A stretch of DNA of 64,000 nt from Escherichia coli (GTDB lineage Bacteria; Pseudomonadota; Gammaproteobacteria; Enterobacterales; Enterobacteriaceae), in the NCBI RefSeq assembly GCF_036507355.1, contig NZ_AP027877.1; one strand, 5' to 3'. Of the stretch, positions 12,749-17,996 are shown one piece after another. A model generated the notes under the pieces. The model was not told the DNA's origin. It searched no databases and saw only the letters and a program-made list of their open reading frames with translations. Position 1 is the stretch's first letter; the number at the start of each line of letters is the position of its first letter. The position numbers and the translations under genes were made by a program.

Positions 12749-14182
12749 ATGAAAGTAACGCTGCCAGAGTTTGAACGAGCAGGAGTGATGGTGGTTGGTG
12801 ATGTGATGCTGGATCGTTACTGGTACGGTCCCACCAGCCGTATCTCGCCGGAAGCGCCGGTGCCCGTGGTTAAAGTGAATACCATCGAAGAACGCCCGGG
12901 CGGCGCGGCTAACGTGGCGATGAATATCGCTTCTCTCGGTGCTAATGCACGTCTGGTCGGGTTGACGGGCATTGACGATGCAGCGCGCGCGCTGAGTAAA
13001 TCTCTGGCCGACGTCAACGTCAAATGCGACTTCGTTTCTGTACCGACGCATCCGACCATCACCAAATTACGGGTACTTTCCCGCAACCAACAGCTGATCC
13101 GTCTGGATTTTGAAGAAGGTTTTGAAGGTGTTGATCCGCAGCCGCTGCACGAGCGGATTAATCAGGCGCTGAGTTCGATTGGCGCGCTGGTGCTTTCTGA
13201 CTACGCCAAAGGTGCGCTGGCAAGCGTACAGCAGATGATCCAACTGGCGCGTAAAGCGGGCGTTCCGGTGCTGATTGATCCAAAAGGTACCGATTTTGAG
13301 CGCTACCGCGGCGCTACGCTGTTAACGCCGAATCTCTCGGAATTTGAAGCTGTTGTCGGTAAATGTAAGACCGAAGAAGAGATTGTTGAGCGCGGCATGA
13401 AACTGATTGCCGATTACGAACTCTCGGCTCTGTTAGTGACCCGTTCCGAACAGGGTATGTCGCTGCTGCAACCGGGTAAAGCGCCGCTGCATATGCCAAC
13501 CCAAGCGCAGGAAGTGTATGACGTTACCGGTGCGGGCGACACGGTGATTGGCGTCCTGGCGGCAACGCTGGCAGCGGGTAATTCGCTGGAAGAAGCCTGC
13601 TTCTTTGCCAATGCGGCGGCTGGTGTGGTGGTCGGCAAACTGGGGACGTCCACGGTTTCGCCGATCGAGCTGGAAAACGCTGTACGTGGACGCGCAGATA
13701 CCGGCTTTGGCGTGATGACCGAAGAGGAACTGAAGCTGGCTGTAGCGGCAGCGCGTAAACGTGGTGAAAAAGTGGTAATGACCAACGGTGTCTTCGATAT
13801 CCTACATGCCGGACACGTCTCTTATCTGGCAAATGCCCGCAAGCTGGGTGACCGCTTGATTGTTGCCGTCAACAGCGATGCCTCCACCAAACGGCTGAAA
13901 GGGGATTCCCGCCCGGTAAACCCACTCGAACAGCGTATGATTGTGCTGGGCGCACTGGAAGCGGTCGACTGGGTAGTGTCGTTTGAAGAAGACACGCCGC
14001 AGCGTCTGATCGCCGGGATCCTGCCAGACCTGCTGGTGAAAGGCGGTGACTACAAACCGGAAGAGATCGCCGGGAGTAAAGAAGTCTGGGCCAACGGCGG
14101 CGAAGTGTTGGTGCTCAACTTTGAAGACGGTTGCTCGACCACTAACATTATCAAGAAGATCCAACAGGATAAAAAAGGCTAA
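12749..14182 (+). CDS. hldE: Bifunctional D-beta-D-heptose 7-phosphate kinase / heptose 1-phosphate adenylyltransferase
   Basis: 477 aa; N-terminal ribokinase-like domain and C-terminal cytidylyltransferase motif [12 protein letters not shown]. Confidence 0.93.
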
Positions 14183-14261
14183 CCGGAAAGCGGTTCACAG
14201 ATCTCGCTTCGTACATGGCAGGCCTATTGACGCTGTTGTTTTTTCAACCTAGAGTAAAGGA

Positions 14262-14410
14262 ACAAGGGTAAGGGAGGATTTCTCCCCCCTCTGATGAGTT
14301 GTTAGTAAGTCGGGAAACTTAACAGTAACAACACAACCAGTATGATGACGAGCTTCATCATAACCCTTTCCTTCTATAAGGCCCCTTCCTCGGGAGGGGC
14401 TTTCCCGTTT
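14262..14410 (+). ncRNA. sibE: Sib-family antisense sRNA (antitoxin), copy proximal to hldE
   Basis: Promoter TTGACG(14227-32)-17 bp-TAGAGT(14250-55); terminator hairpin gcccctTcc/ggaggggc + U-tract at 14380-14410; fully antisense to the ibs ORF; ends approximate; D/E naming by synteny only. Confidence 0.7.
14302..14361 (-). CDS. ibsE: Ibs-family type I toxin, 19 aa (MMKLVIILVVLLLLSFPTY)
   Basis: Hand-translated minus-strand ORF, ATG 14361 to TAA 14302-04; hydrophobic 19-mer typical of Ibs; below ORF-track size cut-off. Confidence 0.75.
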   Translation of the reverse strand: MMKLVIILVVLLLLSFPTY

Positions 14411-14637
14411 CAGCCCCTTGCTGTCTCCCCGATTGTTGATGAGCGCCGGACCCCGCGCAACGCTTTCCCTGAAGCAGTTTTGCCTTCCCCGAGCGGTCAC
14501 GCAAAACGCTGCAACGTCCTGAGCATTTGCACCTTTTAGCGGAACGCAGATATAAAAAATCCCCGGCTTTTTGGGCCAGGGATATGTGTTAATGAAACCT
14601 TCTTGACGCTGATTTTTTTTCAACCTAAAGTAAAGGA

Positions 14638-14786
14638 ACAAGGGTGAGGGAGGATTTCTCCCCCCTCTGATTGGCTGTTAATAAGCTGCGAAACTTACGA
14701 GTAACAACACAATCAGTATGATGACGAGCTTCATCATAACCCTTTCCTTCTGTAAGGCCCCTTCCTCGGGAGGGGCTTTCCCGTTT
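14638..14786 (+). ncRNA. sibD: Sib-family antisense sRNA (antitoxin), copy proximal to yqiK
   Basis: Promoter TTGACG(14603-08)-17 bp-TAAAGT(14626-31); same terminator hairpin at 14756-14786; antisense to second ibs ORF. Confidence 0.7.
14678..14737 (-). CDS. ibsD: Ibs-family type I toxin, 19 aa (MMKLVIILIVLLLVSFAAY)
   Basis: Hand-translated minus-strand ORF, ATG 14737 to TAA 14678-80; paralog of the copy at 14302..14361. Confidence 0.75.
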   Translation of the reverse strand: MMKLVIILIVLLLVSFAAY

Positions 14787-14929
14787 CAGCCCTTTGCTGA
14801 CTCCCCGATTGTTGATGAGCGCCGGACCTCGCGCAACGCTTTCCCTGAAGCAGTTTTGCCTTCCCCGAGCAGTCACGCAAAACGCTGCAACAGCCTGATC
14901 ATTTGCACCTTTTAGCGGAACGCAGATAT

Positions 14930-14965
14930 AAAAAATCCCCGGCTTTTTGTGCCAGGGATGTTCAT
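14930..14965 (-). terminator. Intrinsic terminator downstream of yqiK
   Basis: Minus-strand hairpin cccuggc/gccgggg followed by AUUUUUUAU directly after the yqiK stop; a near-identical copy lies at 14555-14590. Confidence 0.6.
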
Positions 14966-14975
14966 AGCTGAAAAT

Positions 14976-16637
14976 TTATTCTACGTTTTCGGCGACGGGA
15001 GTTGTTGAGGTTAAGGGTGAAGTCAATGCAGCCAGTGAGCCGCCTGAAACGCCAATTTCATTGAGCAAGGAGTCAATCAGTGGTGCCTGTGTGCGGTAAG
15101 AGAGTGCGGCTGATAATGCTTGTTCCGCCAGGTTTCCGCCCCCCACATTACCCGTGTTTGCATCCCCCGCAGTACCACCACGATTCAGTCCATCGACCTG
15201 TATGATCTTAATACCATCGATCGACTTCATCGGCTCAACGGATTTCTCAATTACCGCAGGCAGCGCCTGCAATAATGCCAGTTTGAATTTAAGGCTGGTT
15301 TGTTCATCAGAAAGTACGTTGATAGCATCGTTCAGCGCACGTTGCGCTTCTGCTTCCGCCAGACCCTTTTTACGTGTAGCTTCGGCTAACTCAACGATAG
15401 CCGCCGCCTGCATCTCTGCGGCTTCTTTTTCTGCTTTTGCCCGCACGGTCAGTTCAACCGCTTTGGTTTCTGCATCCTGCGCGGCAGCGATTAGGGCAAC
15501 TTGTTTAGCACGATCGGCTTCTGCGGTCTGGCGAGTGGTTCCAACGTTTTGTTGGGCGCTTACTGCTTCTGCGAGTGCAAGGTTAGCACGCGCTTCTGCC
15601 TGGGACTGTTGTTCCGATTTGGCGGCAATAGCGATCGATTTCGTCTGGTTAGCGATTTCGGTGACCTGCTGCTGTTCGATCTCTTTAATGCGAACTTCAC
15701 GTTCAGCTTCAACTTTTCTTGAGCGGACGGCCTGTTCGCGGTCGATTTCTGTTTCCTGAATCTGTCGTTCAGCCAGAATTCGCGTCTGCTCTGCTTCACG
15801 ACGACGTTCAGCTTCAAAAGCCGCAATTTTCGCATTCTGCTCAGCGGTACGGGTTTTAACCTGCTGCTCCTGCTCAAGCGTCATAAACGCTTCTTGTTGT
15901 TCAATCTCCAACTTGCGCGAAAGTGCATCACGGTTTTTCTCACGCACCGCAACTTCTACATCCTGTTCAACTTCGTTACGCTCGCGGCGACGGCGCTCCG
16001 TCTCCTGAGTCAGTTTGGTTAAACCTTCGGCGTCAAAGGCATTGTTCGGATTGAAATGTTCTTTCGAGGTCTGGTTAAAGTTGGTAAGTGAAACGCTTTC
16101 CAGTTCCAGGCCGTTTTTCGACAGATCTTCAGCTACGGTATTTTGTACTCCCTGCACGAAGTTCTCGCGGGTATCCTGTAACTCATGCATGGTCATTTGT
16201 GCAGCTGTTGCACGGAGGGCATCGACGAATTTATCTTCAACCAACATACGTAAATCTTCTGGTGATAGCGTGCGTTGCCCCAACGTTTGGGCAGCGGTGG
16301 CAATCCCTTCTACTGAAGGTTTTACCCGCACAAAGAAAGCGACTACTACATCGACGCGCATACGATCTTTCGTAATCAGGCTATCAATGGTTGAGCGGCT
16401 GACTTCCAGCTTCAGAGTATTCATATTGATGGGGATTATTTCATGAAAGATCGGCATCACGATTGCGCCACCGCTCATTACCACTTTTTGCCCACCTAAA
16501 CCAGTACGAACAAAAGCTTGCTCTGCCGAAGCTCGACGATAGAGCCTGGCGAAAATAATTCCAATAATAAACAGAATGCATACGGCAATAATCGCGGTAA
16601 ACATCCAGGAGGGCACAGAATTAACAATATCATCCAT
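14976..16637 (-). CDS. yqiK: Flotillin-like SPFH/band-7 family membrane protein
   Basis: 553 aa; N-terminal TM helix, SPFH domain, long Ala/Glu/Lys/Arg-rich coiled-coil. Confidence 0.9.
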   Translation of the reverse strand: MDDIVNSVPSWMFTAIIAVCILFIIGIIFARLYRRASAEQAFVRTGLGGQKVVMSGGAIVMPIFHEIIPINMNTLKLEVSRSTIDSLITKDRMRVDVVVAFFVRVKPSVEGIATAAQTLGQRTLSPEDLRMLVEDKFVDALRATAAQMTMHELQDTRENFVQGVQNTVAEDLSKNGLELESVSLTNFNQTSKEHFNPNNAFDAEGLTKLTQETERRRRERNEVEQDVEVAVREKNRDALSRKLEIEQQEAFMTLEQEQQVKTRTAEQNAKIAAFEAERRREAEQTRILAERQIQETEIDREQAVRSRKVEAEREVRIKEIEQQQVTEIANQTKSIAIAAKSEQQSQAEARANLALAEAVSAQQNVGTTRQTAEADRAKQVALIAAAQDAETKAVELTVRAKAEKEAAEMQAAAIVELAEATRKKGLAEAEAQRALNDAINVLSDEQTSLKFKLALLQALPAVIEKSVEPMKSIDGIKIIQVDGLNRGGTAGDANTGNVGGGNLAEQALSAALSYRTQAPLIDSLLNEIGVSGGSLAALTSPLTSTTPVAENVE

Positions 16638-17298: not shown

Positions 17299-17574
17299 GT
17301 GGCTTCTGTTTCTATCAGCTGTCCCTCCTGTTCAGCTACTGACGGGGTGGTGCGTAACGGCAAAAGCACCGCCGGACATCAGCGCTATCTCTGCTCTCAC
17401 TGCCGTAAAACATGGCAACTGCAGTTCACTTACACCGCTTCTCAACCCGGTACGCACCAGAAAATCATTGATATGGCCATGAATGGCGTTGGATGCCGGG
17501 CAACAGCCCGCATTATGGGCGTTGGCCTCAACACGATTTTACGTCACTTAAAAAACTCAGGCCGCAGTCGGTAA
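17299..17574 (+). CDS. insA: IS1 InsA (transposition repressor, zinc-finger/HTH)
   Basis: 91 aa, [40 protein letters not shown]... Confidence 0.95.
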
Positions 17575-17996
17575 CCTCGCGCATACAGCCGGGCAGTGAC
17601 GTCATCGTCTGCGCGGAAATGGACGAACAGTGGGGCTATGTCGGGGCTAAATCGCGCCAGCGCTGGCTGTTTTACGCGTATGACAGGCTCCGGAAGACGG
17701 TTGTTGCGCACGTATTCGGTGAACGCACGATGGCGACGCTGGGGCGTCTTATGAGCCTGCTGTCACCCTTTGACGTGGTGATATGGATGACGGATGGCTG
17801 GCCGCTGTATGAATCCCGCCTGAAGGGAAAGCTGCACGTAATCAGCAAGCGATATACGCAGCGAATTGAGCGGCATAACCTGAATCTGAGGCAGCACCTG
17901 GCACGGCTGGGACGGAAGTCGCTGTCGTTCTCAAAATCGGTGGAGCTGCATGACAAAGTCATCGGGCATTATCTGAACATAAAACACTATCAATAA
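17493..17996 (+). CDS. insB: IS1 InsB' frame (made as InsAB' transposase by -1 frameshift)
   Basis: 167-aa ORF in the -1 frame relative to insA; A6C slippery motif at 17550-17556. Confidence 0.9.

What the first reader, a model, noticed from the sequence alone, without database searches (positions are those of the whole stretch)
14555..14965. The duplicated Sib/Ibs unit carries a copy of the yqiK terminator hairpin
The minus-strand hairpin plus U-tract directly after the yqiK stop (14930-14965) has a near-identical copy at 14555-14590 between the two units, and the 3' ends of the two copies differ only in the last ~20 bp (14590-14603 versus 14965-14975). This places the duplication boundaries and implies that each ibs mRNA has a terminator-bounded upstream context, which could insulate the toxins from read-through out of yqiK.
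Basis: seen in the sequence. Interest (0 to 1): 0.3.

Follow-up and report, generated by a model that had tools for sequence, protein, structure and literature searches.

The report
Duplicated yqiK terminator inside Sib/Ibs repeat
The E. coli sibD/ibsD–sibE/ibsE toxin–antitoxin pair is a 376-bp tandem duplication that copied the neighbouring yqiK gene's ordinary transcription terminator along with it, which is a tidy but unsurprising detail of a well-known locus.

Summary
Two near-identical hairpin-plus-U-tract elements lie on the minus strand: 14935-14959 with Us to 14930, 16 nt after the yqiK stop, and 14559-14583 with Us to 14554. They sit exactly 376 nt apart and differ by one loop base. 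They are the right-hand ends of two 376-bp tandem units, 14227-14602 (sibE/ibsE) and 14603-14978 (sibD/ibsD).

Genome comparison fixes the unit. About 72% of 5,426 complete E. coli genomes carry the inter-unit junction, about 27% have one unit, and 15 have a second junction. One of those was inspected and has three units, each with its own hairpin.

The hairpin belongs to yqiK, not to the Sib/Ibs family. K-12 sibA, sibB and sibC lack it. Citrobacter, Kluyvera and Phytobacter have one unit and the same hairpin beside yqiK. Genomes without yqiK there have lost it or keep a decayed remnant.

So the duplication captured a conserved intrinsic terminator. The insulation idea fits the architecture and the low polymorphism of the internal copy, but no published 3' end maps to either hairpin. 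The sibA/B tandem has no such element, and one-unit strains are common.

This is a known locus with ordinary parts. Interest is low.

The parts
14227..14602 (.). Tandem unit 1 (hldE side), equivalent to K-12 sibE/ibsE; 376 bp
   Evidence: Direct repeat with period 376. K-12 annotation mapped onto the window. One-unit genomes lack exactly one unit.
14603..14978 (.). Tandem unit 2 (yqiK side), equivalent to K-12 sibD/ibsD; it ends at the yqiK stop codon
   Evidence: The last 17 nt have diverged from the junction sequence.
14227..14255 (+). sibE promoter (TTGACG, 17-nt spacer, TAGAGT)
   Evidence: Promoter scan; positions 1-30 of the Rfam SIB_RNA model.
14262..14405 (+). SibE antitoxin RNA (boundaries transferred from the K-12 annotation)
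   Evidence: Rfam RF00113, 141 bits; K-12 sibE 3195097-3195240; coordinate check.
14302..14361 (-). ibsE toxin ORF, MMKLVIILVVLLLLSFPTY*
   Evidence: Translation.
14432..14460 (-). Inferred ibsE promoter (TTGCGC, 17-nt spacer, AACAAT) with TSS near 14423-14424
   Evidence: Inferred. Han 2010 report an 18-nt 5' overhang of ibsC mRNA beyond SibC and a 163-nt ibsD mRNA; sequence shown. Not found by the consensus scan (8 of 12 matches).
14554..14583 (-). Internal copy of the yqiK terminator: 9-bp stem 14583-14575/14567-14559, 7-nt loop, U tract to 14554
   Evidence: Identical in 3,817 of 3,931 junction-bearing E. coli genomes.
14586..14602 (.). Inter-unit junction (TGTGTTAATGAAACCTTC), probably a diverged copy of the yqiK 3' end
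   Evidence: The same junction occurs in E. albertii and Escherichia sp. E1V33.
14603..14631 (+). sibD promoter (TTGACG, 17-nt spacer, TAAAGT)
14638..14781 (+). SibD antitoxin RNA
   Evidence: Rfam RF00113, 147.7 bits; K-12 sibD annotation.
14678..14737 (-). ibsD toxin ORF, MMKLVIILIVLLLVSFAAY*
   Evidence: Translation.
14638..14669 (-). Small GC stem after the ibsD stop. The published ibsD 3' end (K-12 3194855) maps to its base, about window 14648, with no U tract.
   Evidence: Adams 2021 supplementary file 1; mapping; fold.
14808..14836 (-). Inferred ibsD promoter with TSS near 14799-14800
   Evidence: Han 2010; sequence; inferred.
14930..14959 (-). Terminal hairpin and U tract: the yqiK intrinsic terminator, 16 nt after the stop
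   Evidence: Conserved next to yqiK in Citrobacter, Kluyvera, Phytobacter and an unnamed Enterobacteriaceae genome.
14976..16637 (-). yqiK (flotillin family), the gene that owns the terminator
   Evidence: ORF list; RefSeq annotation of matching genomes.

Best explanation
The hairpin is the Rho-independent terminator of yqiK. In the ancestral Enterobacteriaceae arrangement the order is hldE, one Sib/Ibs module, a variable spacer, the hairpin, then the yqiK stop. Because yqiK and ibs are co-oriented, this terminator also sits about 95 nt upstream of the ibs promoter.

In the Escherichia lineage a 376-bp tandem duplication copied everything from the Sib -35 box to the yqiK stop codon. A second, intact copy of the terminator therefore ended up between ibsD and ibsE. 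Unequal recombination between units has since made one- and three-unit alleles.

The internal copy is physically a competent terminator: a 9-bp stem of about -15 kcal/mol followed by U6-AU. It is the first canonical terminator downstream of ibsD. It should therefore stop ibsD and residual yqiK transcription before the ibsE promoter.

Shown here: the anatomy, the duplication unit, the link between hairpin and yqiK, and the low polymorphism. Inferred: that termination occurs in vivo, and that the internal copy is kept for that reason rather than as a passenger.
For: Anatomy: two canonical hairpin-plus-U-tract sites on the yqiK/ibs strand, sitting inside 376-bp units.

Duplication unit:
- Spans of 586 bp versus 961 bp in E. 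coli genomes.
- The single hairpin is retained next to yqiK in one-unit genomes.
- The junction is present in 3,931 of 5,426 genomes, and 15 genomes have two junctions.
- A three-unit locus has three hairpins, whose stem changes keep G-U pairing.

Ownership of the hairpin:
- K-12 sibA/B/C share homology only up to shortly after the Sib terminator and lack the hairpin.
- Citrobacter FP75, C. youngae, Kluyvera sichuanensis, two Phytobacter species and Enterobacteriaceae MGYG110 each have one unit plus the same hairpin beside yqiK. Both arms of the stem core (8 of the 9 pairs) and the U tract are invariant; only the loop and the outermost pair vary.
- Three Citrobacter genomes without yqiK at this locus lack the hairpin. 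S. arizonae keeps a decayed remnant with no U tract.

Age of the duplication: E. albertii and Escherichia sp. E1V33 have two units with the same junction.

Constraint: the 71-nt hairpin-junction-promoter block is identical to the window in 97% of junction-bearing genomes. An adjacent 71-nt spacer is identical in 40%.

ibsD's own 3' end (K-12 3194855) lies at the base of a stem with no U tract. The internal hairpin is therefore the next canonical stop.
Against: No in vivo evidence:
- The curated Term-seq list of Adams 2021, covering three conditions, has no yqiK-strand 3' end at 31945xx or 31949xx. This may only reflect low yqiK and ibs expression.
- Other data sets could not be read.

Weak evidence for selection:
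- In a 15-unit Escherichia sample the internal hairpin is not significantly less variable than the spacer (3/24 vs 21/88 sites, p = 0.18).
- The low-polymorphism block also contains the sibD promoter.
- Gene conversion from the selected terminal copy could keep the inner copy intact without selection on it.

Not a general requirement: the sibA/B tandem has no inter-unit terminator, and about 27% of E. coli manage with one unit.
Confidence: 0.8

Rival explanations
1. Neutral passenger. The inner hairpin is simply what a duplication ending at the yqiK stop had to include. It may terminate whatever reaches it, but it is not maintained for insulating ibsE. Its intactness reflects the youth of the repeat and gene conversion from the terminal copy.
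For: The sibA/B tandem lacks any inter-unit terminator. One-unit alleles are common and of several recombinant types. Variability of the internal hairpin does not differ significantly from the spacer in the small sample. No mapped 3' end at the inner hairpin.
Against: The block containing the hairpin is nearly invariant across 3,931 genomes, while the neighbouring spacer is polymorphic. The stems are intact in E. albertii and E1V33 internal copies although the flanking spacer has changed. The few stem changes seen keep pairing.
Confidence: 0.4
2. The hairpin mainly serves the opposite (Sib/hldE) strand. It would be the stable 3' structure, or a weak bidirectional stop, for transcripts reading through the Sib terminators. 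That would keep them from running antisense into yqiK, and in the inner copy from running into the sibD promoter.
For: Adams 2021 supplementary file 2 lists a strong Rho termination region on the Sib strand. Its peak is at K-12 3194538, 5 nt beyond the yqiK-side hairpin. Read counts are 1130 upstream and 53 downstream without BCM, and 1252 and 1439 with BCM; the Rho score is 24.5. The authors say such positions mark processed ends. The extension between the Sib terminator and the hairpin is C-rich on this strand, with C/G 1.43. E. albertii and E1V33 terminal copies also have a T5 run on this strand.
Against: In E. coli the hairpin has no U tract on the + strand. The A6/U6 polarity is conserved for the yqiK strand in every genus. 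The hairpin disappears with yqiK while Sib stays. The Rho score uses 800-nt windows, so its resolution is coarse.
Confidence: 0.25
3. The hairpin is a dispersed palindromic repeat (REP/BIME-like) or a protein-binding site that happens to lie here twice.
For: Its sequence, not only its structure, is invariant across genera.
Against: Only two copies occur in the 64-kb window even with 3 mismatches allowed. In other genomes it was seen only at this locus, within the repeat unit. Its geometry is a textbook intrinsic terminator.
Confidence: 0.03

Closest known systems
Sib/Ibs type I toxin-antitoxin repeats of E. coli (SibA-E, formerly QUAD/RygC-E; Fozo et al. 2008; Han et al. 2010, PMC2943612)
   Same: The window contains the sibD/ibsD and sibE/ibsE pair between hldE and yqiK, with full-length Rfam RF00113 matches and 19-aa Ibs ORFs on the opposite strand. 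Tandem duplication within one intergenic region is already described for ibs-sib (PMC2887945).
   Different: The family-wide homologous module ends shortly after the Sib terminator, apart from a short CGCAAA motif. The ~150-nt extension and the hairpin occur only at the yqiK locus, and the papers I could read do not discuss them.
Canonical Rho-independent (intrinsic) terminators
   Same: A G+C-rich 9-bp stem, a 7-nt loop and a U6-AU tail directly after the stem, 16 nt downstream of a stop codon, conserved with the gene it follows.
   Different: Termination has not been measured here. One copy no longer follows a protein-coding gene of normal size; it follows the 19-codon ibsD unit.
Other tandemly duplicated type I TA loci (ldr-rdl LDR repeats; zorO-orzO/zorP-orzP; sibA/sibB)
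   Same: Lineage-specific tandem duplication of a whole toxin/antisense module, with copy number varying between strains.
   Different: In the K-12 sibA/B tandem no inter-unit terminator was found. The D/E repeat has one only because its unit reached the neighbouring gene's terminator.
serA terminator upstream of ibsC
   Same: A co-oriented upstream gene (serA) is separated from ibsC by its own strong intrinsic terminator (12-bp stem). This is the same layout as yqiK, hairpin, ibsD.
   Different: The sequence is unrelated and it is not duplicated.

Membership tests
Sib/Ibs type I toxin-antitoxin (Rfam RF00113) | Sib RNA covariance-model match above the gathering score | tested here: met
   141 and 147.7 bits against a gathering score of 56, full model length, + strand.
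Sib/Ibs type I toxin-antitoxin (Rfam RF00113) | An 18-19-aa hydrophobic ORF fully overlapped on the opposite strand | tested here: met
   MMKLVIILVVLLLLSFPTY and MMKLVIILIVLLLVSFAAY; annotated as Ibs family toxins in RefSeq genomes.
Sib/Ibs type I toxin-antitoxin (Rfam RF00113) | Toxicity of Ibs and repression by the cognate Sib | not testable with these tools
   Known for K-12 from the literature (PMC2943612).
Sib/Ibs type I toxin-antitoxin (Rfam RF00113) | The hairpin is part of the family's conserved module | tested here: not met
   Absent from K-12 sibA, sibB and sibC units and from hldE-linked units where yqiK is missing.
Intrinsic (Rho-independent) terminator | A stable G+C-rich stem-loop immediately followed by a U tract on the transcribed strand | tested here: met
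   9 pairs, 6 of them G-C, 7-nt loop, about -15 kcal/mol, U6-AU tail, in both copies.
Intrinsic (Rho-independent) terminator | Position just downstream of a co-oriented gene end | tested here: met
   The terminal copy is 16 nt after the yqiK stop. The internal copy is 94 nt after the ibsD stop.
Intrinsic (Rho-independent) terminator | Structure kept across relatives | tested here: met
   15 distinct variants from 4 genera all fold to the same 8-9-bp hairpin. The changes are in the loop or are C/U opposite G. There are no double compensatory changes, so this is conservation rather than covariation.
Intrinsic (Rho-independent) terminator | RNA 3' ends at the U tract in vivo | tested here: inconclusive
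   No such 3' end in the Adams 2021 curated tables. Other data sets are not held.
Bidirectional terminator | U tract after the hairpin on both strands | tested here: not met
   The + strand tails are AUGUGUUA and GUUCAUAG in the window. Only the E. albertii and E1V33 terminal copies have T5 on the + strand.
Tandem segmental duplication with copy-number polymorphism | The same unit present once, twice and three times at the same locus in relatives | tested here: met
   586-bp versus 961-bp spans; junction counts; a three-unit locus with 376-bp spacing.

The most novel reading that the evidence does not exclude
The captured terminator copy has been co-opted. It would be the real transcription stop for ibsD, whose mapped 3' end looks processed. 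It would also be an insulator that lets ibsD and ibsE be regulated independently, and purifying selection would keep it for that reason. Together with Rho acting on the C-rich opposite strand, it would form a two-way boundary between the toxin modules and yqiK.
Probability: 0.3. Interest if true: 0.3.

Novelty: already known. Interest (0 to 1): 0.15.

Why it matters
The result defines the repeat unit of a textbook type I toxin-antitoxin duplication. It shows which parts belong to the Sib/Ibs module and which were borrowed from the neighbouring gene. It also gives a simple, testable reason why transcription from yqiK or ibsD should not reach the next toxin promoter. This is useful for annotation and for anyone engineering or deleting ibsD/ibsE, but it opens no new question.

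Tried and rejected
In vivo 3'-end evidence:
- Adams 2021 tables were searchable and list nothing at either hairpin on the yqiK strand.
- Supplements of Choe 2022, Dar & Sorek 2018, Grünberger 2022, the 3'-seq comparison preprint and Conway 2014 are not held.
- TERMITe supplements have no entry for this locus.
- Ju 2019 and Fozo 2008 are not held.

Formal covariation counting: the MAFFT alignment A2 shifted the E. albertii and E1V33 terminal copies by one base. I folded each variant instead. The stems are invariant or change only C/U opposite G, so there is no true covariation to report.

Selection on the inner copy: the 15-unit sample gave no significant result (p = 0.18). Only the cruder population contrast supports constraint.

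The dispersed-repeat idea was rejected.

My first ibs ORF coordinates were out of frame and were corrected.

Full report
**What is in the window.** The region lies between hldE (12749-14182, +) and yqiK (14976-16637, -). It matches the hldE-yqiK intergenic region of E. coli, where RefSeq annotates two Ibs toxins.

Rfam finds two full-length SIB_RNA matches on the + strand, at 14227-14376 (141 bits) and 14603-14752 (147.7 bits), against a gathering score of 56. The opposite strand encodes MMKLVIILVVLLLLSFPTY (14361-14302) and MMKLVIILIVLLLVSFAAY (14737-14678). Comparison with the K-12 annotation shows that the hldE-side unit is sibE/ibsE and the yqiK-side unit is sibD/ibsD.

**The observation.** The consensus scan reports two minus-strand hairpin-plus-T-run sites: 14959-14935 and 14583-14559. 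Each has 9 pairs (6 G-C), a 7-nt loop and the tail TTTTTATATC. A 30-nt pattern with up to 3 mismatches finds only these two sites in 64 kb, and none in 100 shuffles. The hairpins fold at about -15 kcal/mol.

They differ at one loop base and lie exactly 376 nt apart. That is the period of the direct repeat, whose homology runs from 14227/14603 to 14585/14961. The last 17 nt of each unit differ. The junction and the yqiK 3' end still share 12 of 22 positions (P about 0.01-0.05). The duplication therefore probably ran to the yqiK stop codon and the junction later diverged.

**The unit, from copy-number variants.** A 961-nt query spanning the locus matches most complete E. coli genomes over 961 bp. 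About a quarter of an evenly spread sample matches over only 586 bp, which is one unit fewer. These one-unit genomes keep a single hairpin next to the yqiK stop.

A junction-specific 71-nt query hits 3,931 of 5,426 genomes (72%). Fifteen genomes carry the junction twice. One of them, NZ_CP024618.1, has three units spaced 376 bp apart, each ending in a hairpin copy. Its stem changes (G to A, T to C) keep G-U pairing.

One-unit alleles are of several recombinant types. This is what unequal crossing-over between units would produce.

**Whose hairpin is it?** Aligning the five K-12 units shows that family-wide homology runs from the Sib -35 box to about 15 nt past the Sib terminator, plus a short CGCAAA motif. 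The ~150-nt extension and the hairpin are found only in D and E.

A scan of one genome per species with a Sib-core pattern returned 67 loci, of which 16 are linked to hldE.

- **yqiK adjacent.** Citrobacter sp. FP75, C. youngae, Kluyvera sichuanensis, Phytobacter ursingii, P. diazotrophicus and an unnamed Enterobacteriaceae genome each have one unit and the same hairpin beside the yqiK 3' end. Both arms of the stem core (8 of the 9 pairs) and the U tract are invariant. The loop and the outermost pair vary, and the spacer between the Sib/Ibs module and the hairpin differs in length and sequence.
- **yqiK absent, glgS next.** Three Citrobacter genomes lack the hairpin. S. enterica subsp. arizonae keeps a 75%-identical remnant that has lost its U tract.

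The hairpin therefore travels with yqiK. It is yqiK's terminator, and the Escherichia duplication captured it. E. albertii and Escherichia sp. E1V33 already have two units with the same junction. The duplication is thus old within Escherichia, and one-unit E. coli are probably secondary collapses.

**How it relates to ibs transcription.** Han et al. 2010 mapped the ibsC and ibsD 5' ends. They report an 18-nt overhang of ibsC mRNA beyond the SibC 3' end and a 163-nt ibsD mRNA. Transferred to the window, this puts the ibs start sites near 14423 and 14799. The matching promoter is TTGCGC, a 17-nt spacer, then AACAAT (inferred).

Each hairpin's U tract thus ends about 94 nt upstream of the next ibs -35 box. 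The layout on the minus strand is:

1. yqiK
2. terminator
3. ibsD promoter and ibsD
4. small GC stem
5. terminator copy
6. ibsE promoter and ibsE

The only published ibs 3' end I could find (K-12 3194855) lies at the base of the small GC stem. It has no U tract and is 10 nt from the SibD 5' end. It looks like a processed or RNase III end. That makes the internal hairpin the first canonical stop after ibsD.

**Is the inner copy functional or a passenger?**

For function:
- The 71-nt block made of the hairpin's 3' part, the junction and the sibD promoter is identical to the window in 97% of junction-bearing genomes. An adjacent 71-nt spacer is identical in 40%.
- If the 26 hairpin bases varied like the spacer, I estimate about 28% of genomes would differ there (my calculation). 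At most 3% differ anywhere in the block.
- The inner stems are intact in E. albertii and E1V33.

Against:
- The block includes a promoter.
- Gene conversion from the terminal copy could keep the inner copy intact.
- The small-sample test is not significant (p = 0.18).
- The K-12 sibA/B tandem has no inter-unit terminator.
- One-unit strains are common.
- No yqiK-strand 3' end is listed at either hairpin in Adams 2021.

Insulation is therefore plausible and follows from the anatomy, but it is unproven. ibsC has the same layout through serA's own terminator. That fits the ordinary rule that a co-oriented upstream gene ends in a terminator.

**The other strand.** Adams 2021 lists a strong Rho termination region on the Sib strand. 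Its peak is 5 nt past the yqiK-side hairpin, with a Rho score of 24.5. The authors note that such positions mark processed ends. The extension is C-rich on that strand.

Read-through from the Sib or hldE strand is therefore probably stopped by Rho and trimmed back to this hairpin. This is a secondary role at most. The U-tract polarity is conserved for the yqiK strand, and the hairpin is lost together with yqiK.

**Verdict.** The observation and the title claim are correct, and the duplication boundaries are now fixed by one-, two- and three-unit genomes. The parts are ordinary: a known type I TA duplication and a conserved intrinsic terminator. The insulation idea is reasonable but untested. 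Novelty and interest are both low.

Noticed in passing
window 14505-14513 and 14881-14889 (+ strand CACGCAAAA): A short motif (CACGCAAAA; CTCGCAAA in K-12 sibA/B/C) lies about 85-90 nt upstream of the inferred ibs start. It is shared by all five K-12 Sib/Ibs loci and by Citrobacter, Kluyvera, Phytobacter and Salmonella units, and it marks the conserved right edge of the family module. [quoted passage not shown]
   Followed up: partly
window about 14964 (K-12 3194538, Sib strand): Adams 2021 list a strong Rho termination region (score 24.5) on the Sib/hldE strand, peaking 5 nt past the yqiK-side hairpin. The 148-nt extension is C-rich on that strand (C/G 1.43). Read-through of the Sib terminators seems to be stopped by Rho before it runs antisense into yqiK.
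   Followed up: partly
window about 14648 (K-12 3194855, ibs strand): The published ibsD 3' end sits at the base of the small GC stem after the stop. It has no U tract and is 10 nt from the SibD 5' end, as expected for exonuclease trimming or RNase III cleavage of the Sib-ibs duplex rather than intrinsic termination.
   Followed up: partly
window 14960-15000 (yqiK 3' end): The last ~8 codons of yqiK and its 16-nt 3' UTR exist in at least three alleles among Escherichia: window type, K-12/ST131 type and E. albertii type. The hairpin right next to them is constant.
   Followed up: no
window 17299-17996: IS1 (insA- and insB-like ORFs) lies just beyond yqiJ.
   Followed up: no
window 14181-14195 (- strand): A weak terminator-like hairpin (5 pairs, then AGCCTTTTTT) straddles the hldE stop codon on the ibs strand. 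It would be the next stop for ibsE read-through before it runs antisense into hldE.
   Followed up: no
L044 about 395-430 of the oriented segment (S. enterica subsp. arizonae): Where yqiJK is missing and glgS follows, a 75%-identical remnant of the hairpin survives without its U tract. It is a relic of the lost gene's terminator.
   Followed up: partly
L073 (Escherichia whittamii contig): The Sib unit runs straight into CTGTCTCTTATACACA, which I recognise from memory as the Nextera/Tn5 mosaic-end adapter. This contig end is probably an assembly artefact.
   Followed up: no
L005 1130-1148 (K-12 sibA, - strand): The complement of the SibA terminator is itself flagged as a hairpin-plus-T-run on the ibsA strand, inside the ibsA 5' leader. 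The D/E units do not score this way.
   Followed up: no
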